A DNA stretch of 64,000 bases from Oscillospiraceae bacterium (GCA_015065265.1 SVQQ01000003.1:3454-67453); one strand, 5' to 3'; positions 793-61,565 are shown, counted from the stretch's first letter. A program made the numbers and translations. Notes: a model not told the origin generated them from the letters alone.

Positions 793-807
793 GTTTGTAA
801 CATCTAA

Positions 808-1064
808 ATGCGTTTGAGCGAAAACAAGTAAGGATAAGAGTTTATCCAAAGAGAGTCGTTGGCAGGTGTGAAACGACGTTGACCTTATCCCCAATACATT
901 TCGTGAGCAGTGCACCGAACTTACAGTAGGCTGCAACGGGAGTTCCCGTCATAGAACGAGGGTATGTACGTACCCGTAAAGGCTGTTGTCGCGAGACTTC
1001 AGTGAACAGAGGTGGTACCACGGGAAATTCTCGTCCTCTTCTTTTGAAGAGGACGATATTTTTT
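808..1064 (+). promoter_or_regulatory. T-box riboswitch, Tyr specifier (UAC)
   Basis: K-turn TGC..GA / GA-GCA. Lower stem CGAAA (819-823) / TTTCG (899-903). AGTA loop, AGAGA bulge and GGTG distal loop present. Specifier TAC at 895-897 followed by A. T-box GGTGGTACCACG (1011-1022). Terminator TCGTCCTCTTC-TTTT-GAAGAGGACGA plus a T run (1031-1064). Confidence 0.92.
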
Positions 1065-1118
1065 ATCCATTTTAAAGTCTCTTTGAAAGAAAAAAGTACG
1101 AAAGAAGGGATTTTTAAA

Positions 1119-2699
1119 ATGGGTACACAGATTTTAACACTTATAATGCTCGTTGTATTTTTTGCGGTAATGATAGGGGTAGGTCTCTATTGTCGCCGCC
1201 ACTCTACCAACGTTGACGGTTTCGTCCTTGGTGGCAGAAGTGTTGGACCATGGCTTACCGCCTTCGCCTACGGTACTTCATACTTTTCAGCAGTTATTTT
1301 CGTAGGCTACGCAGGACAGTTCGGTTGGGCGTTCGGTATGTCGTCAACCTGGATAGGTCTCGGTAATGCCTTCATCGGCTCACTTCTCGCCTGGGTAGTT
1401 CTTGGCAGAAGAACAAGAGTTATGACCCAACACCTTGAAAGTAAGACAATGCCCGACTTCTTCCAGAAGAGATATAAGTCAAACGCACTGAAAATTGCCG
1501 CATCTTTCATAGTGTTCATTTTCCTCATTCCTTATACAGCGTCCCTCTATAACGGACTTTCAAGCCTCTTTACTATGGCTTTTGACGTGCCTTACTGGTC
1601 AGTAATTCTCATAATGGCAGTCCTTACAGGCATCTACGTCATCTTTGGCGGATATATGGCAACTGCGGTAAATGACTTTATTCAAGGTATTATAATGCTT
1701 GTAGGTATTGTTGCGGTAATCGGCGCAGTTTTACATAGTCAAGGTGGCTTTATGGAAGCATACAGCGCCCTTGGTGCTCTTCCTCACGATACAATGCAAG
1801 GCGCCTTTTCATCATTTGTAGGACCCGACCCAATATTCCTCTTCTTCGTTGTAATGCTCACCTCCCTTGGCACCTGGGGACTTCCTCAGATGATTGGTAA
1901 GTTCTACTCAATCAAAAATGAAGAAGCCATCAATAAAGGAACTATAATTTCAACAGCATTTGCAATCATCGTAGCAGGGGGTTGCTACTTCCTCGGCGGT
2001 TTTGGACGTCTTTTCGACTCACCCGACCTTTACGTAGGTGGAAAACTTATGAACGATAAGATTATCCCATCTATGCTTTCCGAACTTTCCCCCGTAATTG
2101 TGGCGATAGTTATAGTTCTTGTCCTTGCGGCATCAATGTCAACTCTCTCATCACTTGTGCTCACTTCAAGTTCCACCCTGACACTTGACGTAATCGTCCC
2201 CGGACTTGAAAAGAACAAAAAGAGTACAAGCGAGAAGAAAAAACTCTTAATTCTCCGCTTATTTATAGTTTTCTTTATCGTAGTATCTGCAGTAATCGCC
2301 ATTGTTAAGGATATGTTCCCCGGCTTTACCTTTATCGCGCAGATGATGGGCGTGTCTTGGGGCGCTCTTGCAGGAGCATTCCTTGCTCCCTTCCTCTATG
2401 GATTATACTGGAAGAAAACCACAAAATCGGCTGTCGCAGTTTCCTTTATCTTCGGCACAGGAATTGAACTTGTGCAACTGTTAAAAGACTTTGGCGTCTT
2501 TACAATAGACGGCGGACTTTTAGGATTTATTTTCAGAAATTCACTTTACTCGGGAGTATTTGCAATGCTTGGCGGACTTATCCTCGTTCCCATTATCAGC
2601 CTTATCACACCTAAACTTAAAAAAGAGGACACAGATGAAATGTTCTCTTGCTACCATAAGGAAGTAAAAGTATTATCCAAAGAATCACTTGGCAAATAG
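1119..2699 (+). CDS. sodium:solute symporter (SSS/PutP family)
   Basis: Multi-TM protein with FVLGGRSVG, TSYFSAVIFVGYAG and AASMSTLSS motifs. ATG at 1119 follows an AAGGGA RBS. Confidence 0.9.
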   Translation: MGTQILTLIMLVVFFAVMIGVGLYCRRHSTNVDGFVLGGRSVGPWLTAFAYGTSYFSAVIFVGYAGQFGWAFGMSSTWIGLGNAFIGSLLAWVVLGRRTRVMTQHLESKTMPDFFQKRYKSNALKIAASFIVFIFLIPYTASLYNGLSSLFTMAFDVPYWSVILIMAVLTGIYVIFGGYMATAVNDFIQGIIMLVGIVAVIGAVLHSQGGFMEAYSALGALPHDTMQGAFSSFVGPDPIFLFFVVMLTSLGTWGLPQMIGKFYSIKNEEAINKGTIISTAFAIIVAGGCYFLGGFGRLFDSPDLYVGGKLMNDKIIPSMLSELSPVIVAIVIVLVLAASMSTLSSLVLTSSSTLTLDVIVPGLEKNKKSTSEKKKLLILRLFIVFFIVVSAVIAIVKDMFPGFTFIAQMMGVSWGALAGAFLAPFLYGLYWKKTTKSAVAVSFIFGTGIELVQLLKDFGVFTIDGGLLGFIFRNSLYSGVFAMLGGLILVPIISLITPKLKKEDTDEMFSCYHKEVKVLSKESLGK

Positions 2700-2733
2700 A
2701 ATTCATTAAATAGTCTTTTGAAAGGAAATAAAA

Positions 2734-4368
2734 ATGCCCATTACAGAGATTTTACAGAAGAATGCCGACCTTTATCCCAACGACGTAAGTCTCATTGAGA
2801 TAAACCCCAAGTTCGAAAAAGAACGTACCTCTTGGCGCGAATATTCTCTAATTGAGACAAATTCAAGAGAGGTTTATAAAAAGCAGATAACCTGGCAGGA
2901 CTTCAACTGTCGTTCTAACCGCTTTGCAAACCTACTCCTGTCAAGAGGAATAAAAAAAGGGGACAAGGTTGCAATTCTTCTTATGAACTGCCTTGAATGG
3001 CTTCCCGTATATTTCGGAGCCCTTAAATCAGGCGCTATGGCAGTACCTTTAAACTACCGCTATACCGCAGATGAGATTAAGTATTGCCTTGAACTTGCCG
3101 ACGCCGACGTCCTTGTCTTCGGACCTGAATTTATCGGACGAGTTGAAGAGATTTGCACAAAGGTAAAACGTGTGAAAACTTGGCTCTACGTGGGCGGGGA
3201 TTGCCCCACCTTTGCCGAAAGTTACGAGGAACTGGTAGGCTATTGCTCGTCTAAATCACCCGCCATCAAACTCACCGACGACGACGAGGCGGCAATCTAC
3301 TTTTCATCAGGTACAACAGGCTTCCCCAAAGCCATAATACATAAACACAGAAGCCTTATGCACTCCGCCCTTACCGAGAATAATCACCATTCACAGACGA
3401 AAGACGACATCTTCCTGTGTATTCCGCCCCTCTACCATACGGGTGCCAAGATGCACTGGTTCGGCAGTTTCCTTGTAGGTGCAAAATCGGTACTCTTAAA
3501 CGGTATTAAACCCGAATGGATAATGAAGGTCGCAAGTGAAGAGAAGTGCTCTATCGTGTGGTTACTCGTGCCCTGGGCACAGGATATTCTGGATGCCATC
3601 GAGAGAGGGGATATCAAACTTGAAGAATACGACCTTACAAGTTGGCGCCTTATGCACATCGGCGCACAACCTGTACCCCCAAGTCTTATAAAGCGTTGGA
3701 AGAAGTATTTCCCGAACCACGCCTACGACACCAACTACGGACTTTCCGAGTCCATAGGCCCTGGCTGTGTACACCTCGGCGTTGAAAATGAACATAAAGT
3801 CGGCGCTATCGGTAAAGCAGGTTACGGTTGGGAAACTATGATAGTTGACGAAAATAAGAACCCTGTAAAGAGGGGAGAAGTCGGGGAACTTGCAGTAAAA
3901 GGCCCAGGCGTTATGACCGCTTACTATAAAGACGAAAAAGCCACCGCCGAAGTGCTTCGTGACGGTTGGCTCTTTACAGGAGATATGGCAGAGGAAGACG
4001 AGGACGGCTTTATCTGGCTGGTTGACCGCAAGAAAGACGTCATAATTTCAGGCGGTGAAAATCTGTACCCCGTTCAGATTGAAGACTTCTTACGTAAAAA
4101 CGATAAGATTTCCGACGTAGCAGTTATCGGACTTCCCGATGCAAGACTTGGAGAAATAGCCGCCGCTATAATCCAAGTCAAAGAGGGACAGACCTTGACA
4201 GAAGAAGAGGTTGAAGAGTTCTGTATGGACCTTCCCCGATACAAGAGACCTCATAAGGTAATCTTCGCAGACGTACCCCGTAACCCAACAGGTAAAATAG
4301 AAAAGCCCAAACTTCGTAAAATTTACTGTGGCGAAAGCGTTGTGGCTCAACAAAACGAAATAAAGTAA
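2734..4368 (+). CDS. acyl-CoA synthetase (AMP-forming, class I adenylate-forming enzyme)
   Basis: YFSSGTTGFPK P-loop, YGLSE, TGD, DRKKD and GKIEK motifs. Confidence 0.92.
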   Translation: MPITEILQKNADLYPNDVSLIEINPKFEKERTSWREYSLIETNSREVYKKQITWQDFNCRSNRFANLLLSRGIKKGDKVAILLMNCLEWLPVYFGALKSGAMAVPLNYRYTADEIKYCLELADADVLVFGPEFIGRVEEICTKVKRVKTWLYVGGDCPTFAESYEELVGYCSSKSPAIKLTDDDEAAIYFSSGTTGFPKAIIHKHRSLMHSALTENNHHSQTKDDIFLCIPPLYHTGAKMHWFGSFLVGAKSVLLNGIKPEWIMKVASEEKCSIVWLLVPWAQDILDAIERGDIKLEEYDLTSWRLMHIGAQPVPPSLIKRWKKYFPNHAYDTNYGLSESIGPGCVHLGVENEHKVGAIGKAGYGWETMIVDENKNPVKRGEVGELAVKGPGVMTAYYKDEKATAEVLRDGWLFTGDMAEEDEDGFIWLVDRKKDVIISGGENLYPVQIEDFLRKNDKISDVAVIGLPDARLGEIAAAIIQVKEGQTLTEEEVEEFCMDLPRYKRPHKVIFADVPRNPTGKIEKPKLRKIYCGESVVAQQNEIK

Positions 4369-4393
4369 TTTTTGCTTTTAAAGGAGAATTTCA

Positions 4394-6136
4394 ATGAAAA
4401 AGTTATTACTGGGTAACGCCGCAGTTGCCCGTGGCGCCTATGAAGCAGGAGTTAACGTCGTTGCTTCCTATCCAGGCACCCCAAGTACCGAAATTACAGA
4501 AGAAATAGTAAAGTTTGAAGAAATCTACGCCGAATGGTCACCTAACGAAAAGGTTGCCGCCGAAGTTGCAATCGGAGCATCTATTGCAGGTGGCAGAGCC
4601 ATGAGTTGTATGAAACACGTAGGACTCAACGTTATGGCAGACCCTGTCTTCACCGTTAGTTATACGGGAGTTAACGGTGGACTCGTCTTCTGCGTTGCAG
4701 ACGACCCCGGTATGCACTCTTCCCAGAACGAACAGGACTCAAGACACTACGCCAAGGCGTCGAAGATTACAATGCTCGAGCCTTCCGACTCAAAAGAGTG
4801 CCGTGACTTTACCCGCCTTGCTTTCGACCTTTCCGAAAAATTTGATACCCCCGTATTCATCCGCCTTTCCACAAGAGTTTCCCACTCTCAAAGCCTTGTG
4901 GAACTTGAAGAGAGAAAATTAGTTCCCGTAAAGGACTATGAGAAGAATATCGGAAAGTACGTTATGATGCCCGCAAACGCCATAAAGAGACACGTAACCG
5001 TTGAAGAACGCATTAACGCCCTTCGTGAGTTTGCCGAAGTAAGTGACCTTAATACAGTTGAAAATAACGGTTCAAAAATTGGCGTAATTACATCAGGTAT
5101 CACATATATGTACGCGAAAGAAGCACTGGAAGATAAGGTTGACTACCTTAAACTCGGTATGGTTTACCCCCTTCCCGAAAAGAAGATTGTGGATTTTGCG
5201 AAGAATTACGATAAGGTTTTTGTTATCGAAGAACTTGACCCCGTAATCGAAGACCACGCGAAAGCCCTCGGCGTTGAAGTTATCGGTAAAGAGGTGTTCA
5301 CACTTCTTGGCGAATATACCCCCGCTATGATTAAAAAGGCAGTACTTTCAGCCTCTGCCCCCGAAACAATTACCGTAAACGAAAATATCCCTGTCCGTCC
5401 CCCCGTTATGTGCGCAGGTTGCCCACACCGTGGCACCTTCTACGTACTTAAAAAACTCGGACTCGTCGTGTCGGGTGACATCGGTTGTTATACTCTGGGC
5501 GCTACAATGCCCTTGCAGTCGGTAGATACTACAATCTGTATGGGCGCATCCGTTTCAGCCGCACACGGTATGGCAAAAGCAAGAGGCAAGGAATTCAATA
5601 AGAAACTCGTCTCGGTTATAGGGGATTCCACCTTTATGCACTCGGGTATCACAGGACTTGTTGATATCGTTTATAATAAAGGCGCAAACACCGTAATCAT
5701 TCTCGATAACTCTATCACAGGTATGACAGGCCATCAGGACAACCCCACCACAGGCTATACTATCAGAGGTGAAGAGACAAAACAGGTTAACCTCATCACC
5801 CTTTGTAAAGCGGTAGGCGTTGAAAGAGTTGTGGTTGCCGACCCCTTCGACGTAAAACACTTTGAAGAAGTAGTCAAAGCCGAAGTTGAAGCAGACGAAC
5901 CCTCTGTAATTATCGCACAACGCCCCTGCGCACTTTTGAAGAGCGTTAAATATACAGGCGTATGTCAGATTAACGATAAATGTCGCAACTGTAAAATGTG
6001 TATGAAACTCGGTTGCCCCGCCATCACCCTTCGTGACGGTAAGGTAGTAATCGACCCCACCCAGTGTAACGGTTGCGGACTCTGTGTTAACGTTTGCCCG
6101 TTCTCTGCTATCGAAAAGAACGACGAAAGGAGATAA
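4394..6136 (+). CDS. iorA: indolepyruvate:ferredoxin oxidoreductase alpha subunit
   Basis: YPGTPSTE, NEKVA, CAGCPHR, GDIGCY and GDSTF TPP motifs, plus a C-terminal 2x[4Fe-4S] ferredoxin domain. Confidence 0.95.
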   Translation: MKKLLLGNAAVARGAYEAGVNVVASYPGTPSTEITEEIVKFEEIYAEWSPNEKVAAEVAIGASIAGGRAMSCMKHVGLNVMADPVFTVSYTGVNGGLVFCVADDPGMHSSQNEQDSRHYAKASKITMLEPSDSKECRDFTRLAFDLSEKFDTPVFIRLSTRVSHSQSLVELEERKLVPVKDYEKNIGKYVMMPANAIKRHVTVEERINALREFAEVSDLNTVENNGSKIGVITSGITYMYAKEALEDKVDYLKLGMVYPLPEKKIVDFAKNYDKVFVIEELDPVIEDHAKALGVEVIGKEVFTLLGEYTPAMIKKAVLSASAPETITVNENIPVRPPVMCAGCPHRGTFYVLKKLGLVVSGDIGCYTLGATMPLQSVDTTICMGASVSAAHGMAKARGKEFNKKLVSVIGDSTFMHSGITGLVDIVYNKGANTVIILDNSITGMTGHQDNPTTGYTIRGEETKQVNLITLCKAVGVERVVVADPFDVKHFEEVVKAEVEADEPSVIIAQRPCALLKSVKYTGVCQINDKCRNCKMCMKLGCPAITLRDGKVVIDPTQCNGCGLCVNVCPFSAIEKNDERR

Positions 6137-6140
6137 TGTT

Positions 6141-6707
6141 ATGACAAAGAATATAATGATTGTTGGAGTCGGCGGACAGGGAACTCTCCTTGCCAGTCGA
6201 ATTCTCGGTAACACCGTTATAAACGAAGGCTACGACGTAAAGGTCTCCGAAGTTCACGGTATGAGTCAGCGTGGCGGAAGCGTTGTAACCTACGTAAAAT
6301 ATGGCGAAAAGGTCTATTCCCCCATAGTTGATAAAGGATGCGCCGACATAATTTTAGCCTTCGAACTTCTCGAAGCATACCGCGCCCTTCCTTATCTTAA
6401 AAAAGGCGGAAAGATTATTGTAAATAATCAGAAGATTGACCCCATGCCCGTAATTTCAGGCGTTGCCGACTACCCCGATAATATCCCCGAAAAACTCTCG
6501 GGTCTTACCGACTGCACAGTAGTCGATGCCCTCGCCCTTGCAAAAGAGGCGGGAAGCACCAAGGCTGTTAACGTAGTCCTTATCGGCGTTATGGCAAGGA
6601 GCACCGATATCCCCTTTGAAAAGTGGATTGAAACCATAAAGACCACAGTCCCCCCGAAATTCCTCGACATCAACCTCAAAGCCTTTGAACTTGGCTACAA
6701 TAACTAA
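6141..6707 (+). CDS. iorB: indolepyruvate:ferredoxin oxidoreductase beta subunit
   Basis: GVGGQGTLLAS and SEVHGMSQRGGSV motifs. ATG at 6141. Confidence 0.95.
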   Translation: MTKNIMIVGVGGQGTLLASRILGNTVINEGYDVKVSEVHGMSQRGGSVVTYVKYGEKVYSPIVDKGCADIILAFELLEAYRALPYLKKGGKIIVNNQKIDPMPVISGVADYPDNIPEKLSGLTDCTVVDALALAKEAGSTKAVNVVLIGVMARSTDIPFEKWIETIKTTVPPKFLDINLKAFELGYNN

Positions 6708-6714
6708 AAAACAA

Positions 6715-6750
6715 CCCCGAGACAACAACGCTTGCCTCGGGGAAATTTTT
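6715..6750. terminator. hairpin terminator between convergent iorB and the WG-repeat gene
   Basis: CCCCGAG...CTCGGGG stem with flanking A and T runs. Confidence 0.65.
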
Positions 6751-28415: not shown

Positions 28416-28429
28416 TAAGCATGAAATAA

Positions 28430-28503
28430 AAAGCCGATAGATTTTAAATCTATCGGCTTTTCTTTGTATAATGAAATTCCCCACGTTAAACGTGGGGAAT
28501 TTG
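28430..28503. terminator. two back-to-back terminator hairpins between convergent genes
   Basis: AAAAGCCGATAG..CTATCGGCTTTT and AATTCCCCACG..CGTGGGGAATT. Confidence 0.8.
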
Positions 28504-28525: not shown

Positions 28526-29596
28526 TTAGTTTTTCTTTATAGGGCAAGTCCAGTTAAATTTGTCTTCAATTTTGCCCCATTGAATTCCTGTGAGAGTATC
28601 GTAAAGGTGCTGTGTAACCTTACCGATTTTGCCTTCGTTGATAACGAACTTCTTGCCCTTGTAAGCAAGTTCGCCAATGGGTGATACAACTGCCGCTGTA
28701 CCGCAACCCCAAGCCTCTTCAAGAGTTCCGTTTTCGAGAGCCTCTTCAAGTTCGTTTACACTGATAAGGCGTTCACTTACAGTATAGCCTTCACTCTTTA
28801 ATACTTCGATACAAGACTTTCTTGTAATACCGGGAAGAATTGAGCCTGTGAGTGCAGGTGTTACGATTTCTCCGTTTATTTTGAACATAACGTTCATAGC
28901 GCCAACTTCTTCAATGTACTTTCTCTCAACACCGTCAAGCCAAAGTACCTGTGAATAACCCTGAAGTTCTGCCTTCTGACCTGCTCTGTTACTTGCAGCA
29001 TAGTTACCGCCACACTTAGCATAGCCTGTACCACCGCGAACAGCTCTGACGTCGTCGGCTTCAATCATGATTTTAACAGGGTTGATGCCTTCTTTGTAGT
29101 AACTGCCAACGGGAGAAGTGATTATCATAAAGGTTGCATTGTGTACCGCGTGAACGCCGAGAGTTTCGTCACTACCGAACATAAAAGGACGAATGTAAAG
29201 GGAAGTACCCTCTGCAAAAGGTGTCCAGTCCTGTTCGAACTCAACGAATTTAGTAAGAACTTCCATAGCGAGGTCTTCTGGAATCTGAGGAAGACACAAA
29301 CGTTCTGCAGACGTGTTCATTCTGCGAATGTTTTCAATGGGACGGAAAAGCTGAACTGAACCGTCTTTCTTTCGATAGGCTTTAAGACCTTCGAAAATTT
29401 CAGAACCGTAGTGAAGAACTGTACAAGCAGGATGAATCGAGAAAGGACCGAAAGGAACGATTCTCGCATCGTGCCAACCTTCACCCTCGGTGTAATTCAT
29501 AATGAACATATGGTCTGTAAAATACTTTCCAAAGCCCAGAGTAGATGCCTCGGGTTTTTCTTTTGGCTGTGCAATTTTAGTGATTGAAATATCCAT
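28526..29596 (-). CDS. ilvE: branched-chain amino acid aminotransferase
   Basis: FGKYFTDHM, FEGLKAY, LYIRPF, GGTGYAKCGGNYA (PLP Lys) and LPGITRKS motifs. ATG at 29596. Confidence 0.95.
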   Translation of the reverse strand: MDISITKIAQPKEKPEASTLGFGKYFTDHMFIMNYTEGEGWHDARIVPFGPFSIHPACTVLHYGSEIFEGLKAYRKKDGSVQLFRPIENIRRMNTSAERLCLPQIPEDLAMEVLTKFVEFEQDWTPFAEGTSLYIRPFMFGSDETLGVHAVHNATFMIITSPVGSYYKEGINPVKIMIEADDVRAVRGGTGYAKCGGNYAASNRAGQKAELQGYSQVLWLDGVERKYIEEVGAMNVMFKINGEIVTPALTGSILPGITRKSCIEVLKSEGYTVSERLISVNELEEALENGTLEEAWGCGTAAVVSPIGELAYKGKKFVINEGKIGKVTQHLYDTLTGIQWGKIEDKFNWTCPIKKN

Positions 29597-29615
29597 ATTT
29601 TTATCCTCCTGTAAC

Positions 29616-30149
29616 TTAAAAGTCACGTCCGATTTTCATAGCGTCAAGGTTCTTGTCAAGCATATCTATATGCTTTGCGGAAATGACCTTGCGAAGAGCC
29701 GCTTCAACTGATTTTTCATCAAATTCACCGGTCTCTTTGAGAACTTTACCTACCATAATAATGTTAGCAAGGGTAGGAGTCATATTATCGTCGGCAAGTT
29801 TTGTAGCAGGAATTGCAAAAGCACGAACGTCTTTACGGATAACCTCTCTTTCGATAAGAGAAGAATCGTAGAAAATCATTCCACCCTCTGCCACGTCGTT
29901 TTCGTACTTGTCAAGAGAAGGAAGGTTCATAGCGATGAGAATGTCGGGCTTTGAAACGATAGGTGAGCCAACGGGAGTGTCGCTGATAATTACCGAGCAA
30001 CTCGCTGTACCGCCTCTCATTTCAGGACCGTATGAAGGAAGCCATGAAACGTTTTTTCCGTCGGTAAGTCCCTTATATGCAAGGAGTTTTCCCGAGAAGA
30101 GAATACCCTGACCGCCGAAACCTGCAAAAAGATACTTATTAGTACTCAT
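29616..30149 (-). CDS. 2-oxoacid:ferredoxin oxidoreductase gamma subunit (Vor-type)
   Basis: AGFGGQG and [12 protein letters not shown] motifs. Confidence 0.92.
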
Positions 30150-30910
30150 TAGTTTGCCCCCTTTACGATTCCCGCACTTCTGTCTTTATATACTCCCAAA
30201 GGATAATAGGGAATCATTTTTTCGTCTATCCATTCAAGAGCCTTTTGAGGAGTCATACCCCAGTTTGTAGGACAAGAGGAAATAACCTCAACAAGAGAAA
30301 ATCCCTTGTTGTTAACCTGATTTTCAAAAGCCTTTTTAATAGCCTTCTTTGCCGCCTTAACGTTCTTAACGTTGTTTACAGCAACTCTTTCAAGATACTC
30401 AGGACCGTCAAGTTCTGAGAGAAGTTCGCAGACTCTGATGGGGAAACCGCAGTGGTTTGTGTCTCTTCCGTAAGGAGAAGTCTGTGTCACCTGACCTGGA
30501 AGAGAAGTAGGAGCCATCTGACCGCCTGTCATTCCGTAGATCGCATTGTTAATGAAGATTACGGTAATGTTTTCGTTACGAGCTGCAGAGTGAACTGTCT
30601 CTGCCATACCGATTGAAGCAAGGTCACCGTCACCCTGATAAGTAAATACAATGTGTCCTTCGGGGTTCGCACGTTTAACGCCTGTTGCAACAGCAGGAGC
30701 ACGTCCGTGAGCCGCCTCTATCATATCACAGTTAAAATAGTTGTAAGCCATAACCGAGCAACCTACGGGAGCCACACCTATTGTCTTACCTTCAATTCCG
30801 AGTTCATCAATACACTCTGCTACAAGACGGTGAACAATACCGTGTGTACAACCGGGACAATAGTGAAAGGGAATGTCGGCAAGTGCATGGGGTTTATCAA
30901 ATACTACCAT
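30149..30910 (-). CDS. 2-oxoacid:ferredoxin oxidoreductase beta subunit (Vor-type)
   Basis: YCPGCTHG, HGRAPAVATG, YQGDGDLA, YGMTGGQ and SCPTNW motifs. Confidence 0.92.
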   Translation of the reverse strand: MVVFDKPHALADIPFHYCPGCTHGIVHRLVAECIDELGIEGKTIGVAPVGCSVMAYNYFNCDMIEAAHGRAPAVATGVKRANPEGHIVFTYQGDGDLASIGMAETVHSAARNENITVIFINNAIYGMTGGQMAPTSLPGQVTQTSPYGRDTNHCGFPIRVCELLSELDGPEYLERVAVNNVKNVKAAKKAIKKAFENQVNNKGFSLVEVISSCPTNWGMTPQKALEWIDEKMIPYYPLGVYKDRSAGIVKGAN

Positions 30911-31977
30911 TATTTAGCACCTCCGTTTTTATTGGCATTTTTAATAGCATCGAGAATCTGTTCAGGATTGGGTATCATACCACCCGCTCTGTTTACAAGA
31001 GTCACGGGACGACGACATTCTGTAGCAAGACGTACGTCTTCAATCATCTGACCCATTGAAAGTTCAACTGAAATAAACGTATGTACCTTTTCAGCCGCCT
31101 TCTTGAAAGGCTTCTTGGGGAAAGGCCAGAGAGTTATAGGACGGATAAGACCAACCTTGATGCCCTCTTTTCTCGCCTCGTCAATAGCATTCTTTGCAAC
31201 TCTTGAAGCAATACCGAAAGCCGCAATACAGATTTCAGCGTCTTCCATACAGTACTCTTCATACATAACTTCGTTTTCTTCGATTGTTTCGTATCTCTTG
31301 TATCTGTCGAAGTTTCCTTTTTCAAGGGCTTCGGGGTCAAGGTAAAGGGAGTTTGTGATGTTGTGGAAACGTTCAAGTTTCGTACCAGTTGTAGCCCAAG
31401 GCTTTTCGATAGGCTCACCTACTTTAAGGTCAAGGGAAACAGGTTCCATCATCTGACCCATAGTACCGTCGGCAAGAATCATTGAAGTCATACGGTACTT
31501 ATCTGCAAGGTCAAAACCATGAACTGTGAGGTCTGCCATTTCCTGAACTGATGCAGGGGCAAGAACTATCATATGGAAGTCACCGTGAGCAGCACCCTTT
31601 GTAGCCTGGAAATAGTCCGACTGAGAAGGCTGAATACCGCCAAGACCGGGACCACCTCTTTGAACGTTAACTACAAGAGAGGGAAGGTCAGCACCTGCAA
31701 GGTAGGAAAGTCCTTCTCCTTTAAGAGAAATTCCTGGGCTTGAAGATGATGTCATTACACGAAGTCCGCAAGATGCAACTCCGTAAACCATATTTATAGC
31801 GGCAACTTCACTTTCTGCCTGAAGGAAGCAACCACCGATTTTAGGCATTCTTTTTGCCATATAAGCGGCAATTTCTGTTTGAGGAGTAATGGGGTAACCG
31901 AAATAGTGTCTGCAACCTGCGATGATTGCCGCTTCGGCTATAGCCTCATTACCTTTCATTAAAACTTTATCTGACAT
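30910..31977 (-). CDS. vorB: 2-ketoisovalerate:ferredoxin oxidoreductase alpha subunit (VorB family)
   Basis: MKGNEA, GYPITPQ, QAESE, TSSSSPGISL and RGGPGLGGIQPSQSDY motifs. Confidence 0.9.
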   Translation of the reverse strand: MSDKVLMKGNEAIAEAAIIAGCRHYFGYPITPQTEIAAYMAKRMPKIGGCFLQAESEVAAINMVYGVASCGLRVMTSSSSPGISLKGEGLSYLAGADLPSLVVNVQRGGPGLGGIQPSQSDYFQATKGAAHGDFHMIVLAPASVQEMADLTVHGFDLADKYRMTSMILADGTMGQMMEPVSLDLKVGEPIEKPWATTGTKLERFHNITNSLYLDPEALEKGNFDRYKRYETIEENEVMYEEYCMEDAEICIAAFGIASRVAKNAIDEARKEGIKVGLIRPITLWPFPKKPFKKAAEKVHTFISVELSMGQMIEDVRLATECRRPVTLVNRAGGMIPNPEQILDAIKNANKNGGAK

Positions 31978-31992
31978 TTTTTCACGACCTTT

Positions 31993-32199
31993 CTATTTCT
32001 CAATCTTGATTATACAGTCGGGACACATTGTAGCGCAGAAAGTACAACCGATACAAGCCTCTTCATTTACTGCTTCTACGGGGTGATGTCCTTTTTTGTT
32101 GATTTTTTCCTTGGCAAGTGCCAGAACTTTTTTAGGACAAGCGTCAACGCACAGTCCACAGCCCTTGCAATTGTCTGTTTTAAAAGTGAGTTTAGGCAT
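31993..32199 (-). CDS. 2x[4Fe-4S] delta subunit of the 2-oxoacid oxidoreductase
   Basis: CKGCGLCVDACP and CIGCTFCATMCP. Confidence 0.92.
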   Translation of the reverse strand: MPKLTFKTDNCKGCGLCVDACPKKVLALAKEKINKKGHHPVEAVNEEACIGCTFCATMCPDCIIKIEK

Positions 32200-32211
32200 T
32201 TTTTACACTCC

Positions 32212-32874
32212 TTACATGATTTTTTTCTGCAAATTTAAGGGTATTAAATTTGCAACTTTATTTTCAAGGGAGGGGAAAATCTTCGAGTGCACAGTTGTTG
32301 CTATCAAAGGAAGGGAAGTGGCTTTCGCAAGTTCCTCTGCCTTGTGATAAAGGTTTAGCACTAACTCGGGTGTTGTTTCTTCTCCGATGTTTGAATTGTT
32401 TATGATTGCAGTGAAAGGGATTTTTCCCGCAATCTCTATTTCCCTCATCACTTCAATGGCACTTTCGATGTTTGAGGTGAGGGGTCGACAGGCATTGTAA
32501 ACGAAAATCATTTCATAATCGTTTTCTTCAAGAATGTAGGGGGTATATCTTCCAAGCACCAGAGCCCCTCGCTCGTCTCCGCCAATGTCAAGAATACAGT
32601 GACCTGTGTTCTTGTCCACAAGGGAATACATTTCTTGGGGCAGGGCAGGTAAGTCAACGTTTGACCCTGCAAAAGGCGATGCAATAAGTTTTATCCCCGC
32701 ATCTTCAAATTCTTTTTGACTGTCTTTTGTACGGAAATAAGGATTGACAATGTCCATATCGGCAACTGTTACTTTACCATACCTCTTTTTAATTTCAAAG
32801 GCAAGATTTACAGCAATATTTGTCTTTCCGCTTCCGTAATGTCCTGACAAAAGGGTTAATCTTTTAAATTCCAT
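32212..32874 (-). CDS. P-loop NTP-binding protein of unknown function (CobQ/MinD-like)
   Basis: GHYGSGKT Walker A, DMDIVNPYFR and DIGGDERG motifs. Confidence 0.8.
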   Translation of the reverse strand: MEFKRLTLLSGHYGSGKTNIAVNLAFEIKKRYGKVTVADMDIVNPYFRTKDSQKEFEDAGIKLIASPFAGSNVDLPALPQEMYSLVDKNTGHCILDIGGDERGALVLGRYTPYILEENDYEMIFVYNACRPLTSNIESAIEVMREIEIAGKIPFTAIINNSNIGEETTPELVLNLYHKAEELAKATSLPLIATTVHSKIFPSLENKVANLIPLNLQKKIM

Positions 32875-35162
32875 TACAGTTTATTCCTTTGTATCTTTCC
32901 GCTGACAGTTTTGGGAAGAGAGTCTCTGAATACAACTATTCTCGGATACTTATAAGGAGCAGTTCTGCTCTTAACGTAATCCTGAATTTCCTTTTTGAGA
33001 GCGTCTGTGGGTTCAGTACCTTTAACAAGAACGATACTTGCCTTAACTACCTGTCCTCTCACCTCGTCGGGCGCTGCGGATACACCGCATTCAAGAACGT
33101 AGGGCAGTTCCATAATAACGCTTTCAATTTCAAAAGGACCGATTCGGTAGCCTGAGGACTTGATAACGTCGTCAGTTCTGCCAACGTACCAGTAGAATCC
33201 GTCTTCATCACGCCAAGCAACGTCGCCTGTGTGATAATAGCCGTCGTACCATACCTCATCTGTCTTTTCTTTATTCTGATAGTAGCCCTTGAAGAGTCCG
33301 CAAGGAGCACCGTCCTGAACTCTTACGCAAATTTCTCCCGATTCACCGTCAGAAACTTCGTTTCCGTCTGCATCAAGAAGATGTACGTCATATATGGGAG
33401 CAGGTTTACCCATAGAACCTATTTTATGATTTGCTCCCACCAGATTTCCTATAATCATAGTACTTTCCGTCTGACCAAAGCCTTCAAGAATTTGAAGACC
33501 TGTAAGTTTTTCAAACTGATAATATACCTCGGGGTTAAGTGCCTCACCTGCTGTTGTCATATGCTTAACGGAAGACAGGTCGTACTTTGAAATGTCCTCT
33601 TTTACCATCATACGAAGTATAGTGGGAGGGGCACAGAAGGTAGTAATATGATATTTACTGAACATGGGAAGTATGTCTGCCGCGTCAAAACGGTCAAAGT
33701 CATATACGAAGGTGGCCGCCTCGCATATCCACTGTCCGTAAAGTTTACCCCACATAGCCTTTGCCCAACCTGTGTCGGATATAGTAAGGTGAAGTCCGTT
33801 GGGGTCAACCGTATGCCAGTATTTTGCAGTATGGAAGTGACCGAGTGCATATTTAAATGAGTGACAGGCAATTTTCGGATAACCTGTTGTGCCCGAAGTG
33901 AAGTACATAAGCATCAGGTCGTCACCACCTGCCGACTCGGACGTTCTGTCAAAGTGAGTACTAAAGAGTGACATCTCACTGTCAAAGTCACGCCAACCGT
34001 CAATCTTCTTGTCGCCAACTAAAATCTTGTATTCAAGAGTGGGGCAGTGCTCTGCGGCAAGGTCTACCTGCTTTGCAGTTTGGTCAGAGGCAGTACAAAC
34101 AATAGCCTTAACTCCCGCAGAATTGAAGCGGTATTCAAAGTCGTGCTCCTGAAGTTGATTTGTTGCAGGAATTGCAATCGCACCAAGTTTATGAAGACCG
34201 AGCATTGCTATCCAGAATTGGTAGTGACGTTTAAGAACCAGCATTACTCTGTCACCCTTCTTGATACCAAGTGACTTAAAGTAGTTTGCCGCCTGTGACG
34301 AAAGTTTCTTCATATCCTTGAAGGTGAAGCGCCTCTCAGTCTTGTCAATGGAAATATGTAACATTGCAAGTTTGTCAGGGTCTTTATCTGCAATAGCATC
34401 AACTATGTCGTATGCAAAGTTGAAGTTTTCGATGTTCTTGAATTTTATTGAAAGGGGAGTACCGTTTTCATCTTCGACAGTATCGATGAAATTCTTATAT
34501 ACTCTCTCCTTGGTGTCCTTTGGAACTTTTCTTTCAATAATTGTATTTGAGTGAACGAGTTCGGATATGGGCTCACCTGTGGGATTAAGAACGATAGCAT
34601 AGAAAAGACAGTCCGCATTATCTACAGCAATCATACCGTGAGGAGTTGAACTGTTGTAATAAATACTGTCACCTGGGCCAAGAACTTCCGTGTGGTCGCC
34701 TACCTGAACTTTAAGGTGCCCCTCAATGATGATATCACATTCCTGACCTGCGTGAGTTGTCAGTTCAATTGCCTTGTTTTGAGCCTCGGCACTGTATGCC
34801 GCCTTTACGTAAAGGGGCTCGGCAATTCTGTTCTGGAAAGAGGGCGCCAGATTATAGTAAATCATTCCGTGGGCCTGTTCAATCTTCTGACCCATACCAC
34901 GCCTTGTAACAGTATATGTTTTAAGTTTGGGACTATAACCTTCAATAATGTCGGTAACGTCAACGTTAAGGGCCTGAGCACAACGGTAGATAAATGCGAA
35001 AGTGAGGTCCATTTCACCCTTTTCGCAACTTATGTATTCTTCTGTAGAAACACCTGTCTTCTGTGACATTTCCTCGGGGGATAGAGCCACGATTTCGCGA
35101 AGTTCTTTTATTCTCCCCGCCATTTCCTTGATTTTGCAATCAAGTTCAGAAAATTTGTTCAT
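32874..35162 (-). CDS. XRE-HTH/cupin regulator domain fused to a medium/branched-chain acyl-CoA synthetase
   Basis: N-terminal HTH (RIKELRE..EYISCEKG) and cupin (THAGQE..YYNSSTPHG), then an ACS domain (YFTSGTTGYPK, DTGWAK, EGFGQTE, TGD, KTVSGK). Confidence 0.9.
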   Translation of the reverse strand: MNKFSELDCKIKEMAGRIKELREIVALSPEEMSQKTGVSTEEYISCEKGEMDLTFAFIYRCAQALNVDVTDIIEGYSPKLKTYTVTRRGMGQKIEQAHGMIYYNLAPSFQNRIAEPLYVKAAYSAEAQNKAIELTTHAGQECDIIIEGHLKVQVGDHTEVLGPGDSIYYNSSTPHGMIAVDNADCLFYAIVLNPTGEPISELVHSNTIIERKVPKDTKERVYKNFIDTVEDENGTPLSIKFKNIENFNFAYDIVDAIADKDPDKLAMLHISIDKTERRFTFKDMKKLSSQAANYFKSLGIKKGDRVMLVLKRHYQFWIAMLGLHKLGAIAIPATNQLQEHDFEYRFNSAGVKAIVCTASDQTAKQVDLAAEHCPTLEYKILVGDKKIDGWRDFDSEMSLFSTHFDRTSESAGGDDLMLMYFTSGTTGYPKIACHSFKYALGHFHTAKYWHTVDPNGLHLTISDTGWAKAMWGKLYGQWICEAATFVYDFDRFDAADILPMFSKYHITTFCAPPTILRMMVKEDISKYDLSSVKHMTTAGEALNPEVYYQFEKLTGLQILEGFGQTESTMIIGNLVGANHKIGSMGKPAPIYDVHLLDADGNEVSDGESGEICVRVQDGAPCGLFKGYYQNKEKTDEVWYDGYYHTGDVAWRDEDGFYWYVGRTDDVIKSSGYRIGPFEIESVIMELPYVLECGVSAAPDEVRGQVVKASIVLVKGTEPTDALKKEIQDYVKSRTAPYKYPRIVVFRDSLPKTVSGKIQRNKL

Positions 35163-35179
35163 TTTTACCTCCGATTAGG

Positions 35180-35445
35180 GACAAAAAAATCGCCCCAAAG
35201 ATATGTTCCTTGAGACGAGTTGTTTACACATTACCCGCGGTACCACTCAATTTGCAGTAAAACTGCCACTCTTGGAATCTAGCAATTCCTATGCCTTTAC
35301 GCAGCAATCACGGAGAGGTTCTACCGGCAAACGCTTTCTTCCTCTCGGCTCGGAAACTACAAATGACGTCTCTTTTTTGCGACTCGCACCACCCGTCGCC
35401 TCTCTGTAAAAAAAGTATTACGCCACACTCTTCGTCATAGCCTTT
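35180..35445 (-). promoter_or_regulatory. T-box riboswitch, Val specifier (GUA)
   Basis: Minus strand: K-turn GGC-TAT-GA / GA-GCC; lower stem GAAG/TTTC; specifier GTA (35360-35358) followed by G; upper stems GGCGT/ACGTC and CTTTTTT/AAAAAAG; AGAGA and GGTG motifs; T-box GAGTGGTACCGCG (35248-35236); terminator TCGTCTCAAGG..CTTTGGGGCGA-T7. Confidence 0.9.
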
Positions 35446-35460
35446 ATCTTGAATAAAACA

Positions 35461-35489
35461 AGTATAACATATTCTTTATGTTTTGTCAA
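35461..35489 (-). promoter_or_regulatory. sigmaA promoter of the Val T-box operon
   Basis: Minus strand TTGACA-17-TATACT with a TGn extension. Confidence 0.85.
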
Positions 35490-40575: not shown

Positions 40576-40651
40576 GGGGGTTTAGCTCAGCTGGGAGAGC
40601 ATCTGCCTTACAAGCAGAGGGTCACAGGTTCGAGCCCTGTAGTCCCCACCA
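40576..40651 (+). tRNA. tRNA-Val (anticodon TAC)
   Basis: 76-nt cloverleaf with acceptor GGGGGTT/AGTCCCC, anticodon loop CTTACAA, TTCGA T-loop and encoded CCA. Confidence 0.97.
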
Positions 40652-61325: not shown

Positions 61326-61334
61326 TAGCTTAGT

Positions 61335-61497
61335 GATAGAGGTGCGACGATTATAAGTAATTTCCCACACGTGCAAAGGAGCAGGGTAATGAAAGGAATC
61401 GCCGCCGAAATCCGAAAAATATCCTTGAACTGTTTTTCGGGTTGGTTGACTTGTAGAATATGCAGTCGACTGTCACAATTATTTGTGGAGTGCTATC
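61335..61497 (+). promoter_or_regulatory. lysine riboswitch (L-box)
   Basis: GATAGAGGTGCG..AGTA..GAAAGG..CGCCGAA..CTGTCAC..GTGGAGTGCTATC; P1 is GATAG/CTATC. Confidence 0.9.
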
Positions 61498-61565
61498 TTT
61501 TGTGACTTTTTTGTCGTGGGTGATAGTACCCATGACATTTTTTATTTTTTTAGGAGGATTTTTCT

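What the first reader, a model, noticed from the sequence alone, without database searches (positions are those of the whole stretch)
28526..35489. Val T-box operon: acyl-CoA synthetase, Vor-type oxidoreductase and IlvE as a complete isobutyrate-to-valine reductive carboxylation pathway
Seen: a full T-box (GUA specifier at 35360-35358, same register as canonical valS leaders) precedes six co-oriented genes with gaps of 0-20 nt plus ilvE: XRE-cupin-ACS, P-loop protein, delta, alpha, beta and gamma subunits, ilvE. Established: these enzymes are usually annotated as BCAA catabolism. Branched-chain VFA-requiring rumen anaerobes are known to make BCAAs from isobutyrate, 2-methylbutyrate and isovalerate by reductive carboxylation. 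Inference: induction by Val starvation only makes sense in the anabolic direction, so this operon encodes all three steps (activation, carboxylation, transamination). I recall T-box surveys mentioning oxidoreductase operons under BCAA T-boxes, so the partial precedent should be checked.
Basis: partly seen in the sequence, partly recalled or inferred. Interest (0 to 1): 0.8.

Follow-up and report, generated by a model that had tools for sequence, protein, structure and literature searches.

The report
tRNA-Val-switched isobutyrate-to-valine salvage operon
An uncultured gut bacterium that lacks the normal valine pathway carries a seven-gene operon, switched on by uncharged valine tRNA, that most likely rebuilds valine from the fermentation acid isobutyrate; this gives testable genes for a nutritional habit of rumen and gut bacteria known since the 1960s.

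Summary
A T-box leader lies at window 35208-35447 (-). Its GUA (Val) specifier is at 35360-35358, and it has a UGGU bulge and a terminator.

It heads one tightly packed operon:
- an HTH-cupin-acyl-CoA synthetase fusion;
- a SIMIBI-class P-loop NTPase;
- four subunits (delta, alpha, beta, gamma) of a Vor-type 2-oxoacid:ferredoxin oxidoreductase;
- IlvE.

GUA plus a purine is invariant in all 78 orthologous leaders from other species, and the gene order is conserved there.

The genome (1.65 Mb, 96% complete, Acutalibacteraceae-like gut MAG) has no ilvB, ilvC, ilvD or leuBCD. This operon holds its only Vor-type oxidoreductase and its only branched-chain aminotransferase. The synthetase domain is 53% identical to Methanosarcina MacsMa, which prefers 2-methylbutyrate.

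The anabolic reading (isobutyrate to isobutyryl-CoA to 2-oxoisovalerate to valine) is therefore well supported, but only by inference.

It is one arm of a larger design. Six of the genome's nine T-boxes (Val, Ile, Leu, Phe, Tyr, Trp) gate precursor-salvage enzymes. The oxidoreductase and IlvE probably also serve Ile and Leu.

The chemistry is old. I found no published description of the T-box-gated gene layout. Earlier AI notes of this scan describe the same layout in relatives.

The parts
35461..35489 (-). Promoter: TTGACA, 17-nt spacer, TATACT with upstream TG
   Evidence: 11 of 12 consensus match. A TTGAC / TGnTAnAAT pair sits at the same place in the related leaders.
35208..35447 (-). T-box leader: Stem I, Stem III, antiterminator with T-box sequence
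   Evidence: RF00230, 86.5 bits, E 2.2e-19, full model length. Orthologous leaders score 94-102 bits.
35358..35360 (-). Specifier codon GUA (Val), followed by purine G
   Evidence: Same register as UAC+A in the window's other T-box. GUA plus a purine is invariant in 78 of 78 relatives while the preceding bases vary.
35242..35245 (-). UGGU of the antiterminator bulge; pairs with the ACCA 3' end of tRNA-Val
   Evidence: alignment. tRNA-Val(UAC) has discriminator A73.
35190..35218 (-). Leader terminator: 12-bp hairpin plus U7; its 5' arm overlaps the 3' strand of the antiterminator
   Evidence: hairpin in both the MFE and the centroid structure.
32874..35162 (-). XRE-HTH + cupin + AMP-forming short/medium-chain acyl-CoA synthetase (762 aa); proposed isobutyrate-CoA ligase
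   Evidence: Pfam HTH_19/HTH_3, Cupin_2, AMP-binding, AMP-binding_C. Best NCBIfam hit is MbcS, 438 bits, below its cut-off. 53% identical to MacsMa, PDB 3ETC.
32212..32874 (-). SIMIBI-class P-loop NTPase (220 aa), function unknown; candidate maturation or helper factor of the oxidoreductase
   Evidence: Weak ParA/CbiA Pfam hits. Conserved between the ACS and delta genes in relatives. AF2 model pLDDT 85; nearest folds are SRP54/FtsY, ATPase-type HypB, ApbC and MipZ at TM 0.5-0.6. No conserved cysteine.
31993..32199 (-). Oxidoreductase delta subunit, 2x[4Fe-4S] ferredoxin-like (68 aa)
   Evidence: Pfam Fer4 families; NCBIfam PorD_KorD and OGOR_delta below their cut-offs.
30910..31977 (-). Oxidoreductase alpha subunit (355 aa)
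   Evidence: POR_N + PFOR_II. NCBIfam NF005507 'VorB' subfamily, 539.7 bits against a cut-off of 399.
30149..30910 (-). Oxidoreductase beta subunit, TPP-binding (253 aa)
   Evidence: TPP_enzyme_C. PorB_KorB-type NCBIfam hits, below their cut-offs.
29616..30149 (-). Oxidoreductase gamma subunit (177 aa)
   Evidence: Pfam POR, 130.8 bits.
28526..29596 (-). IlvE, class IV branched-chain aminotransferase (356 aa from the ATG after AGGAGG)
   Evidence: NF009897 486 bits (cut-off 307) and TIGR01123 400 bits (cut-off 250). RBS and start. Only copy in the genome.
28429..28502 (.). Two palindromic hairpins between the convergent ilvE and the next + strand gene: the operon end
40576..40648 (+). tRNA-Val(UAC) gene, the predicted ligand of the leader
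   Evidence: Rfam tRNA. ARAGORN gives anticodon TAC and an A-CCA 3' end; it is the only Val isoacceptor type found.

Best explanation
The locus is a valine-starvation-induced salvage operon.

Switch. When tRNA-Val(UAC) is uncharged, it pairs with the GUA specifier and with the UGGU bulge of the leader. This stabilises the antiterminator and lets RNA polymerase read into seven genes.

Pathway.
1. The AMP-forming acyl-CoA synthetase activates imported isobutyrate to isobutyryl-CoA, at the cost of ATP to AMP + PPi.
2. The four-subunit Vor-type 2-oxoacid:ferredoxin oxidoreductase runs in the synthase direction: isobutyryl-CoA + CO2 + reduced ferredoxin gives 2-oxoisovalerate. The ferredoxin can be reduced by, for example, the genome's PFOR.
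3. IlvE transaminates 2-oxoisovalerate to valine.

Context. The genome has no acetolactate synthase, ketol-acid reductoisomerase or dihydroxy-acid dehydratase. This is therefore the only biosynthetic route to valine; the alternative is uptake.

Shared core. The oxidoreductase and IlvE are single-copy. They most likely also serve isoleucine and leucine. The acyl-CoA substrates for those would come from separate ligases gated by Ile (AUC) and Leu (CUC) T-boxes on another contig. Amino-acid specificity would then be set mainly at the activation step.

What is shown: the RNA element, the codon, its conservation, the gene content and order, and the absence of the ilv genes. What is inferred: the direction of flux, the substrates, co-transcription, and the role of the P-loop protein.
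For: T-box and specifier:
- RF00230 matches with E 2e-19 and a GUA+G specifier.
- GUA plus a purine is invariant in 78 of 78 leaders from other species, while the flanking bases vary.
- Orthologous leaders pass the Rfam cut-off.
- tRNA-Val(UAC) with A73 matches the UGGU bulge.
- The terminator overlaps the antiterminator.

Operon:
- Gene gaps are -1 to 19 nt with no internal terminator.
- The order ACS, P-loop, delta, alpha, beta, gamma, ilvE is kept in essentially all related loci long enough to show it.

Enzymes:
- The synthetase is 53% identical to MacsMa (3ETC), whose preferred substrate is 2-methylbutyrate (PMC10455477).
- Its best NCBIfam model is the S. aureus branched-acid ligase MbcS.
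- The alpha subunit passes the VorB subfamily cut-off, and IlvE passes its equivalog cut-offs.

Need for the route:
- There is no ilvC, ilvD, ilvB/ilvI or ilvH.
- The leuCD/leuB-like genes are aconitase and isocitrate dehydrogenase.
- 11 of 15 genomes of the same genus also lack ilvC.

Direction:
- No butyrate kinase scores above its cut-off.
- PFOR is present as a source of reduced ferredoxin.

Parallel design:
- A paralogous HTH-cupin-ACS with an invariant AUC (Ile) T-box lies directly upstream in 56-61 relatives, and on contig C22 here.
- In this genome, Leu, Phe and Tyr T-boxes gate other acyl-CoA ligases and IorAB, and a Trp T-box gates a stand-alone TrpB-like protein.
- Val-type and Ile-type ligases differ at fixed positions near acyl-pocket motifs. 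The Val type carries the bulkier residues: A467/M470 against G/L.
Against: - There is no expression or biochemical data. No RNA-seq run holds the locus.
- The window's leader scores 86.5 bits, under the Rfam gathering score of 93.
- Oxidoreductase substrate specificity cannot be read from sequence. The beta, gamma and delta subunits score best on generic or 2-oxoglutarate models, below their cut-offs.
- The ligase misses the MbcS equivalog cut-off (438 against 850).
- The genome is a 50-contig MAG, about 4% incomplete, so a missing ilv operon cannot be fully excluded. Four of 15 genomes of the same genus have ilvC as well as the ligase, so the operon is not simply a replacement for the ilv pathway.
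- If the oxidoreductase and IlvE serve Ile and Leu too, control by a Val leader alone is unexplained in this genome.
- Reductive carboxylation needs very low-potential electrons. How these are supplied is inferred.
Confidence: 0.8

Rival explanations
1. Catabolic reading. The operon ferments valine: IlvE deaminates it, the oxidoreductase oxidises 2-oxoisovalerate to isobutyryl-CoA and reduces ferredoxin. The T-box would be incidental, or would work with inverted logic.
For: Vor-type enzymes and IlvE are usually annotated as catabolic. The NCBIfam name of the alpha subunit is '3-methyl-2-oxobutanoate dehydrogenase'. The reactions of both enzymes are reversible.
Against: - All known T-boxes turn genes on when the cognate tRNA is uncharged. 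Degrading valine at that moment would be self-defeating.
- The first gene is an AMP-forming ligase, which consumes ATP to make acyl-CoA and cannot conserve energy from it.
- No butyrate kinase scores above its cut-off.
- The genome cannot otherwise make valine.
- The same logic recurs with Ile, Leu, Phe and Tyr leaders.
Confidence: 0.04
2. Lipid-primer reading. The ligase, like S. aureus MbcS, makes branched acyl-CoA primers for branched-chain fatty acids. The oxidoreductase makes the same primers oxidatively from oxo acids. Valine is a precursor, not the product.
For: MbcS is the best NCBIfam model for the ligase. MbcS supports branched-chain fatty acid synthesis (PMC10026030, listed).
Against: - A tRNA-Val sensor reports the needs of protein synthesis, not of the membrane.
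- IlvE lies in the same unit, and paralogous ligases have matched specifiers (GUA, AUC), which fits amino-acid supply.
- The ligase scores far below the MbcS equivalog cut-off (438 against 850).
Confidence: 0.05
3. Partial-control reading. The T-box gates only the ligase gene. The P-loop, oxidoreductase and ilvE genes are expressed from internal promoters, constitutively or under other control.
For: The oxidoreductase and IlvE are single-copy and are probably needed for Ile and Leu as well. Control by Val alone would be awkward. Weak promoter-like matches exist inside the operon. In a few relatives the Val-type ligase stands without vor genes next to it (L016, L034, L058, L069, L087-L089).
Against: - Start and stop codons overlap, or gaps are at most 19 nt.
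- No terminator follows the ligase gene.
- The order is conserved across about 65 species-level loci.
- The internal promoter matches are no better than those in the shuffled controls (24 found against 13 +/- 3.7 expected over the whole 7.8 kb, most at 9 of 12).
Confidence: 0.08

Closest known systems
T-box leaders of branched-chain amino acid genes in Firmicutes, e.g. the B. subtilis ilv-leu operon (Leu, CUC) and valS leaders (own knowledge; Rfam RF00230)
   Same: Same RNA architecture and the same logic: uncharged cognate tRNA prevents termination and turns on supply of that amino acid. The specifier register, the UGGN bulge and the terminator/antiterminator overlap all match.
   Different: The genes controlled are not ilv/leu biosynthetic genes, aminoacyl-tRNA synthetases or transporters. 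They are an acyl-CoA ligase, a ferredoxin-dependent 2-oxoacid oxidoreductase and IlvE, that is, a salvage route from a fermentation acid. I found no such cargo in the T-box literature I could search.
Reductive carboxylation of isobutyrate, 2-methylbutyrate and isovalerate to Val, Ile and Leu in rumen anaerobes (Allison and co-workers, 1960s-80s, e.g. Allison & Peel 1971 on Megasphaera elsdenii and Prevotella ruminicola; own knowledge)
   Same: The same three chemical steps and the same ecological setting: gut or rumen, cross-feeding on branched volatile fatty acids.
   Different: That work was labelling and enzymology in other phyla or families, and to my knowledge did not assign genes or regulation. 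Here a complete gene set with a built-in specificity label (the specifier codon) is predicted in uncultured Acutalibacteraceae-like Clostridia.
Anabolic 2-oxoisovalerate and indolepyruvate oxidoreductases of Methanothermobacter (Tersteegen et al. 1997; own knowledge)
   Same: Multi-subunit Vor-type enzyme proposed to work in the synthase direction for amino acid synthesis. The alpha subunit falls in the NCBIfam 'VorB' subfamily.
   Different: This one is bacterial, has a separate delta subunit, is linked to a dedicated ligase, a SIMIBI NTPase and IlvE, and is under riboswitch control.
MacsMa, medium-chain acyl-CoA synthetase of Methanosarcina acetivorans (PDB 3ETC; PMC10455477)
   Same: 53% identity over 518 residues. 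MacsMa is an AMP-forming ligase whose preferred substrate is branched 2-methylbutyrate.
   Different: The window protein carries an extra N-terminal XRE-HTH + cupin module of about 235 residues. At the WGKxxW motif it has A467/M470, where MacsMa and the Ile-type paralogs have G at the 467 position. The substrate is untested.
MbcS, branched short-chain acyl-CoA synthetase of Staphylococcus aureus (PMC10026030, PMC11167679)
   Same: Best-scoring NCBIfam model. MbcS activates isobutyrate and 2-methylbutyrate.
   Different: The score is 438 bits against an equivalog cut-off of 850, so this is not an ortholog. MbcS feeds lipid synthesis, has no HTH-cupin module, and no T-box is reported for it.

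Membership tests
T-box leader (Rfam RF00230) | Stem I with a specifier loop: codon followed by a purine, directly 5' of the closing helix | tested here: met
   GUA+G, then UUUC pairing with GAAG. Same register as UAC+A at 804-1041. Invariant in 78 of 78 relatives.
T-box leader (Rfam RF00230) | Conserved Stem I motifs (AGAGA bulge, distal GGUGNNA loop) and the T-box sequence with a UGGN bulge complementary to the tRNA NCCA end | tested here: met
   AGAGA, GGUGCGA and UGGUACCGCG align to the model. UGGU matches A73-CCA of tRNA-Val(UAC).
T-box leader (Rfam RF00230) | Mutually exclusive antiterminator and intrinsic terminator | tested here: met
   A 12-bp hairpin plus U7 at 35218-35190. Its 5' arm is the 3' strand of the antiterminator.
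T-box leader (Rfam RF00230) | Score at or above Rfam's curated gathering cut-off (an operational threshold, not a biological feature) | tested here: inconclusive
   The window copy scores 86.5 bits against 93 (E 2.2e-19). Orthologous Val leaders in L013, L023, L032 and L037 score 94-102 bits.
T-box leader (Rfam RF00230) | Read-through stimulated specifically by uncharged cognate tRNA | not testable with these tools
   Needs an in vitro antitermination or reporter assay.
2-oxoacid:ferredoxin oxidoreductase, four-subunit Vor type | Alpha (POR_N + PFOR_II), beta (TPP-binding), gamma (POR) and delta (2x[4Fe-4S]) subunits encoded together | tested here: met
   Pfam domains of the four adjacent genes.
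2-oxoacid:ferredoxin oxidoreductase, four-subunit Vor type | Membership of the curated VorB alpha-subunit subfamily | tested here: met
   NF005507 scores 539.7 bits against a cut-off of 399. The Thermococcales-type VOR alpha model NF006232 scores only 72.6 against 646.
2-oxoacid:ferredoxin oxidoreductase, four-subunit Vor type | Activity on 2-oxoisovalerate / isobutyryl-CoA, in the synthase direction | not testable with these tools
   Inferred only from the Val T-box, IlvE, the ligase and the missing ilv genes.
[quoted passage not shown] | AMP-binding and AMP-binding_C domains; close similarity to a characterised branched-acid ligase | tested here: met
   Pfam. 53% identity and 639 bits to 3ETC MacsMa.
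MbcS equivalog (NF047394) | Score above the curated equivalog cut-off | tested here: not met
   438.1 bits against 850. Not filed as MbcS.
Branched-chain amino acid aminotransferase IlvE (class IV) | Score above the curated equivalog cut-offs | tested here: met
   NF009897 scores 486.4 against 307; TIGR01123 scores 400.7 against 250.
Reductive-carboxylation route from branched fatty acids to branched-chain amino acids | Genes for all three steps (activation, carboxylation, transamination) in one regulated unit | tested here: met
Reductive-carboxylation route from branched fatty acids to branched-chain amino acids | No competing de novo route (ilvBNCD) in the genome | tested here: met
   No hit by tblastn or by the HMMs for ilvC, ilvD and ilvB. 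Caveat: the MAG is 95.9% complete.
Reductive-carboxylation route from branched fatty acids to branched-chain amino acids | Carbon from isobutyrate and CO2 appears in valine | not testable with these tools
   Needs isotope labelling.

The most novel reading that the evidence does not exclude
The ligase may itself be a second sensor.

- Its N-terminal XRE-HTH + cupin module is conserved as strongly as the catalytic domain (70-78% against 75-79% identity).
- The module exists as a separate gene next to the ligase in at least one relative (G033).
- It holds 11 of the 18 positions that separate Val-type from Ile-type paralogs.

This fits a 'trigger enzyme' in the manner of BirA. The cupin would bind the end product (Val or Ile) or the acid, and would tune catalysis and/or DNA binding. 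Each arm would then compute demand (uncharged tRNA, at the RNA level) AND supply or feedback (small ligand, at the protein level).

The conserved cysteine-free SIMIBI NTPase between the ligase and the oxidoreductase would be a dedicated assembly or gating factor for an oxidoreductase that must run in reverse.
Probability: 0.25. Interest if true: 0.75.

Novelty: new variant of a known kind. Interest (0 to 1): 0.62.

Why it matters
Many fibre-degrading rumen and gut bacteria need branched volatile fatty acids. Feeding these acids improves ruminant digestion. Even so, the genes behind the classic 'isobutyrate to valine' labelling results have stayed poorly defined in Firmicutes.

This locus gives a complete, compact candidate gene set. 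It also carries its own annotation: the specifier codon says which amino acid each ligase paralog serves (GUA for Val, AUC for Ile, CUC for Leu). That turns thousands of proteins now labelled only 'AMP-binding protein' (at least 7481 clusters) into testable substrate predictions.

The locus also warns that 'Vor/Ior + IlvE' in gut metagenomes should not be counted automatically as amino acid fermentation. In this genome they look biosynthetic. The organism appears to depend on its neighbours' fermentation acids for Val, Ile, Leu, Phe and Tyr, and probably on indole for Trp. This matters for cultivating such uncultured Clostridia and for models of cross-feeding.

Tried and rejected
- Expression evidence. 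No RNA run holds the locus; only faecal and gut DNA metagenomes do. Leader versus body coverage could not be read.
- Literature precedent. Ten full-text searches combining T-box with oxidoreductase, CoA-ligase, isobutyrate or reductive-carboxylation terms found nothing relevant. The Wels 2008 text has no such terms. Vitreschak 2008, Gutierrez-Preciado 2009, Shah 2009 and Meng 2010 are not held. A precedent in those papers cannot be excluded.
- Operator for the HTH module. The palindrome AACATA-N5-TATGTT in the promoter spacer of the window is not conserved in relatives. k-mer counting upstream of 78 Val and 53 Ile leaders found only the -35 box and the start of the T-box. Rejected as evidence for autoregulation.
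- Possible LeuABCD route from 2-oxoisovalerate. The leuC/D/B-like hits on contig C29 are a 641-aa aconitase and a 403-aa isocitrate dehydrogenase, next to a citrate/homocitrate-synthase-like gene. The LeuA-like gene under the Leu T-box has lost the RDGEQ and HxH catalytic motifs.
- P-loop protein as an Fe-S carrier (Mrp/ApbC) or a NifH-like electron pump. No conserved cysteines. Only generic SIMIBI fold matches at TM 0.5-0.6. The sequence search of the PDB gave nothing significant.
- The operon as a simple replacement for the ilv pathway. Rejected, because four genomes of the same genus carry both ilvC and the ligase.

Full report
**What is there**

The window is contig C2:3454-67453 of a 1.65-Mb, 39.8% G+C, 50-contig genome. 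The genome is estimated 95.9% complete.

Its closest relatives in public genomes are uncultured MAGs. They are labelled Acutalibacteraceae, Oscillospiraceae or Clostridia, and come from ruminant, deer, buffalo and human (Hadza) gut. DNA runs that hold the locus are faecal or gut metagenomes.

Seven genes lie on the minus strand between 35489 and 28430, behind a leader:

- a 762-aa fusion of XRE-type HTH, cupin and AMP-forming acyl-CoA synthetase (32874-35162);
- a 220-aa P-loop protein (32212-32874);
- a 68-aa 2x[4Fe-4S] delta subunit (31993-32199);
- a 355-aa alpha subunit, which passes the NCBIfam VorB subfamily cut-off (30910-31977);
- a 253-aa TPP-binding beta subunit (30149-30910);
- a 177-aa gamma subunit (29616-30149);
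- IlvE, which passes two equivalog cut-offs (28526-29596; ATG preceded by AGGAGG).

Neighbouring genes overlap by one base or are at most 19 nt apart. Two palindromic hairpins at 28429-28502 separate ilvE from a convergent gene. Upstream lies an unrelated GH4-type glycosidase gene with its own terminator.

**The leader**

Rfam's T-box model matches 35208-35447 (-) end to end, at 86.5 bits and E 2.2e-19. This is a little under the curated cut-off of 93, which is why the default scan missed it. The orthologous leaders of four relatives score 94-102 bits.

The alignment shows:
- the AGAGA bulge;
- the GGUGCGA distal loop;
- the specifier loop, with GUA at 35360-35358 followed by G and then the closing helix;
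- the UGGUACCGCG T-box sequence.

The specifier is in the same register as UAC+A in the window's other T-box.

A 12-bp hairpin with seven U's (35218-35190) shares its 5' arm with the antiterminator. A near-consensus promoter lies at 35489-35461.

The genome encodes tRNA-Val only with anticodon UAC (two copies, one at window 40576-40648). Its discriminator A73 fits the UGGU bulge.

**Is the codon assignment more than chance?**

I fetched the 80 best of at least 582 species-level loci that encode a relative of the ligase. I then aligned the 340 nt upstream of the gene.

In all 78 leaders that could be extracted, GUA plus a purine is invariant. The three bases before it vary (UUU, UCU, GCU, UCG, AUU, UAU and others). 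The overlapping triplets UUG and UGU are therefore not conserved.

The order ligase, P-loop, delta, alpha, beta, gamma, ilvE is kept in essentially every locus long enough to show it. In a handful the ligase stands alone.

**What it most likely does**

T-boxes turn genes on when the cognate tRNA is uncharged. The cargo should therefore raise the valine supply.

- The first enzyme is an AMP-forming ligase. It spends ATP to make an acyl-CoA and cannot harvest energy from one.
- Its catalytic part is 53% identical over 518 residues to MacsMa of Methanosarcina acetivorans (PDB 3ETC). The preferred substrate of MacsMa is the branched acid 2-methylbutyrate.
- Its best NCBIfam model is the staphylococcal branched-acid ligase MbcS, though well below the equivalog cut-off.

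The genome has no match to ilvC, ilvD or the large acetolactate synthase subunit by HMM. It also has no match to E. coli IlvC, IlvD, IlvI, IlvH or IlvM by tblastn.

The leuC/D/B-like hits are an aconitase and an isocitrate dehydrogenase. The operon holds the only Vor-type oxidoreductase and the only IlvE in the genome.

A PFOR that can reduce ferredoxin is present. No butyrate kinase above its cut-off is present.

The coherent reading is:

1. isobutyrate to isobutyryl-CoA (ligase);
2. reductive carboxylation to 2-oxoisovalerate (oxidoreductase, reduced ferredoxin);
3. transamination to valine (IlvE).

These steps are inferred from sequence and context. None has been measured.

**One arm of a larger design**

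The genome has nine T-boxes. Three precede aminoacyl-tRNA synthetase operons (pheST, thrS-like, cysE-cysS). The other six precede salvage enzymes:

| Specifier | Location | Genes gated |
|---|---|---|
| Val (GUA) | this operon | ligase, P-loop, oxidoreductase, IlvE |
| Ile (AUC) | contig C22 | a 63%-identical HTH-cupin-ligase paralog |
| Leu (CUC) | contig C22 | a LeuA-like protein and a TIM-barrel-ligase fusion |
| Phe (UUC) | contig C4 | a PaaK-like phenylacetate-CoA ligase and an ACT protein |
| Tyr (UAC) | window 804-1041 | a sodium:solute symporter, a ligase and IorAB |
| Trp (UGG) | contig C29 | a stand-alone TrpB-like protein |

In 56-61 of the 80 related loci, a paralogous HTH-cupin-ligase lies directly upstream of the Val unit. 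It has its own T-box, whose specifier AUC is invariant. In many relatives the Leu unit follows ilvE. In the present genome the cluster has been split: the Val unit is alone on C2, and the Leu and Ile units are on C22.

The oxidoreductase and IlvE are single-copy, so they probably serve all three branched-chain amino acids. Specificity would then be set at the ligase. Why they answer only to the Val leader here is not explained.

Val-type and Ile-type ligases differ at 18 positions that are fixed within each group. Seven lie in the catalytic domain. These include A467/M470 (Val) against G/L (Ile; MacsMa also has G at 467) in the WxKxxW motif, and M569/G572 against L/A near the GQTE motif. This is compatible with a tighter pocket for the smaller acid. 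It is suggestive only.

**Unknown parts**

The P-loop protein is conserved in place at 53-62% identity. It has GHYGSGKT, DIGGD and NNSN motifs and no conserved cysteine. A confident model (pLDDT 85) resembles SIMIBI-class NTPases only broadly: SRP54/FtsY, ATPase-type HypB, ApbC and MipZ at TM 0.5-0.6. A maturation or helper role for the oxidoreductase is a guess.

The HTH-cupin module is as conserved as the enzyme and carries 11 of the 18 group-specific positions. In one relative it is a separate gene next to the ligase. I found no conserved operator. The fusion family is very large (at least 7481 clusters). It is named only 'AMP-binding protein' or 'acetyl-CoA synthetase'.

**Limits**

- The genome is a MAG, so a short missing contig could hide the ilv genes. 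However, 11 of 15 genomes of the same genus also lack ilvC.
- Four genomes of the same genus have both ilvC and the ligase. The operon is therefore a salvage option in some relatives and apparently the sole route here.
- No transcript data exist.
- Oxidoreductase specificity is not readable from sequence.

**Novelty**

The chemistry (Allison and co-workers) and anabolic Vor/Ior enzymes in methanogens (Tersteegen et al.) are old; I cite these from my own knowledge. T-boxes are textbook.

What I could not find in the searchable literature is a T-box regulon made of acyl-CoA ligases plus a ferredoxin oxidoreductase. Two key surveys are not held, so a brief earlier mention cannot be excluded.

Earlier AI notes of this scan describe the same cluster in about eight related genomes and reach the same reading. 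I saw them after forming mine. They are not independent evidence.

What this genome adds:
- it lacks ilvBNCD and leuBCD outright;
- the cluster is split;
- two-thirds of its T-boxes are devoted to precursor salvage, including the aromatic arms.

Noticed in passing
window 804-6750: A second T-box (105.9 bits, UAC = Tyr specifier) heads a sodium:solute symporter, a 544-aa AMP-forming ligase, IorA (580 aa) and IorB. It looks like the aromatic counterpart: arylacetate to arylpyruvate to Tyr. Another finding of this scan (e1-5252415) already flags it.
   Followed up: partly
G000:C22:5964-12783 (outside the window): A Leu (CUC) T-box precedes a LeuA-like protein that has lost the RDGEQ and HxH catalytic motifs but keeps the LeuA_dimer regulatory domain. 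A TIM-barrel (AP_endonuc_2) + AMP-ligase fusion of 819 aa follows. Directly after that comes an Ile (AUC) T-box and a 773-aa HTH-cupin-ligase paralog.
   Followed up: partly
G000:C4:18554-18793 (-) and downstream: A Phe (UUC) T-box precedes a PaaK-like phenylacetate-CoA ligase (435 aa) and a double-ACT protein (143 aa). This suggests phenylacetate-to-phenylalanine salvage, with IorAB encoded elsewhere.
   Followed up: partly
G000:C29:3139-3370 (-): A Trp (UGG) T-box precedes a stand-alone TrpB-like PLP enzyme (405 aa). This fits tryptophan made from indole plus serine rather than de novo.
   Followed up: no
window 32212-32874 (-): A cysteine-free SIMIBI-class NTPase (motifs GHYGSGKT, DIGGD, NNSN) is always found between the ligase and the oxidoreductase genes. 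It has no close solved structure and no specific family.
   Followed up: partly
window 61329-61503 (+): Lysine riboswitch, 108.4 bits.
   Followed up: no
G033:C1:943703-945963 (relative, complete genome): The HTH-cupin module is a separate 200-aa gene directly upstream of a 565-aa ligase. This is the unfused state of the window's 762-aa protein, and this genome also has ilvC.
   Followed up: no
L036:24-100: A Gut-1 RNA (RF01706, 72.8 bits) lies a few kb upstream of the Ile/Val/Leu cluster in one relative.
   Followed up: no
relatives L012-L091, junction between the Ile-type ligase stop and the Val promoter: The -35 box of the Val unit lies about 20-60 nt after the stop codon of the upstream Ile-type ligase, and no hairpin is evident between them. 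Transcripts from the Ile unit probably run into the Val attenuator in series.
   Followed up: no
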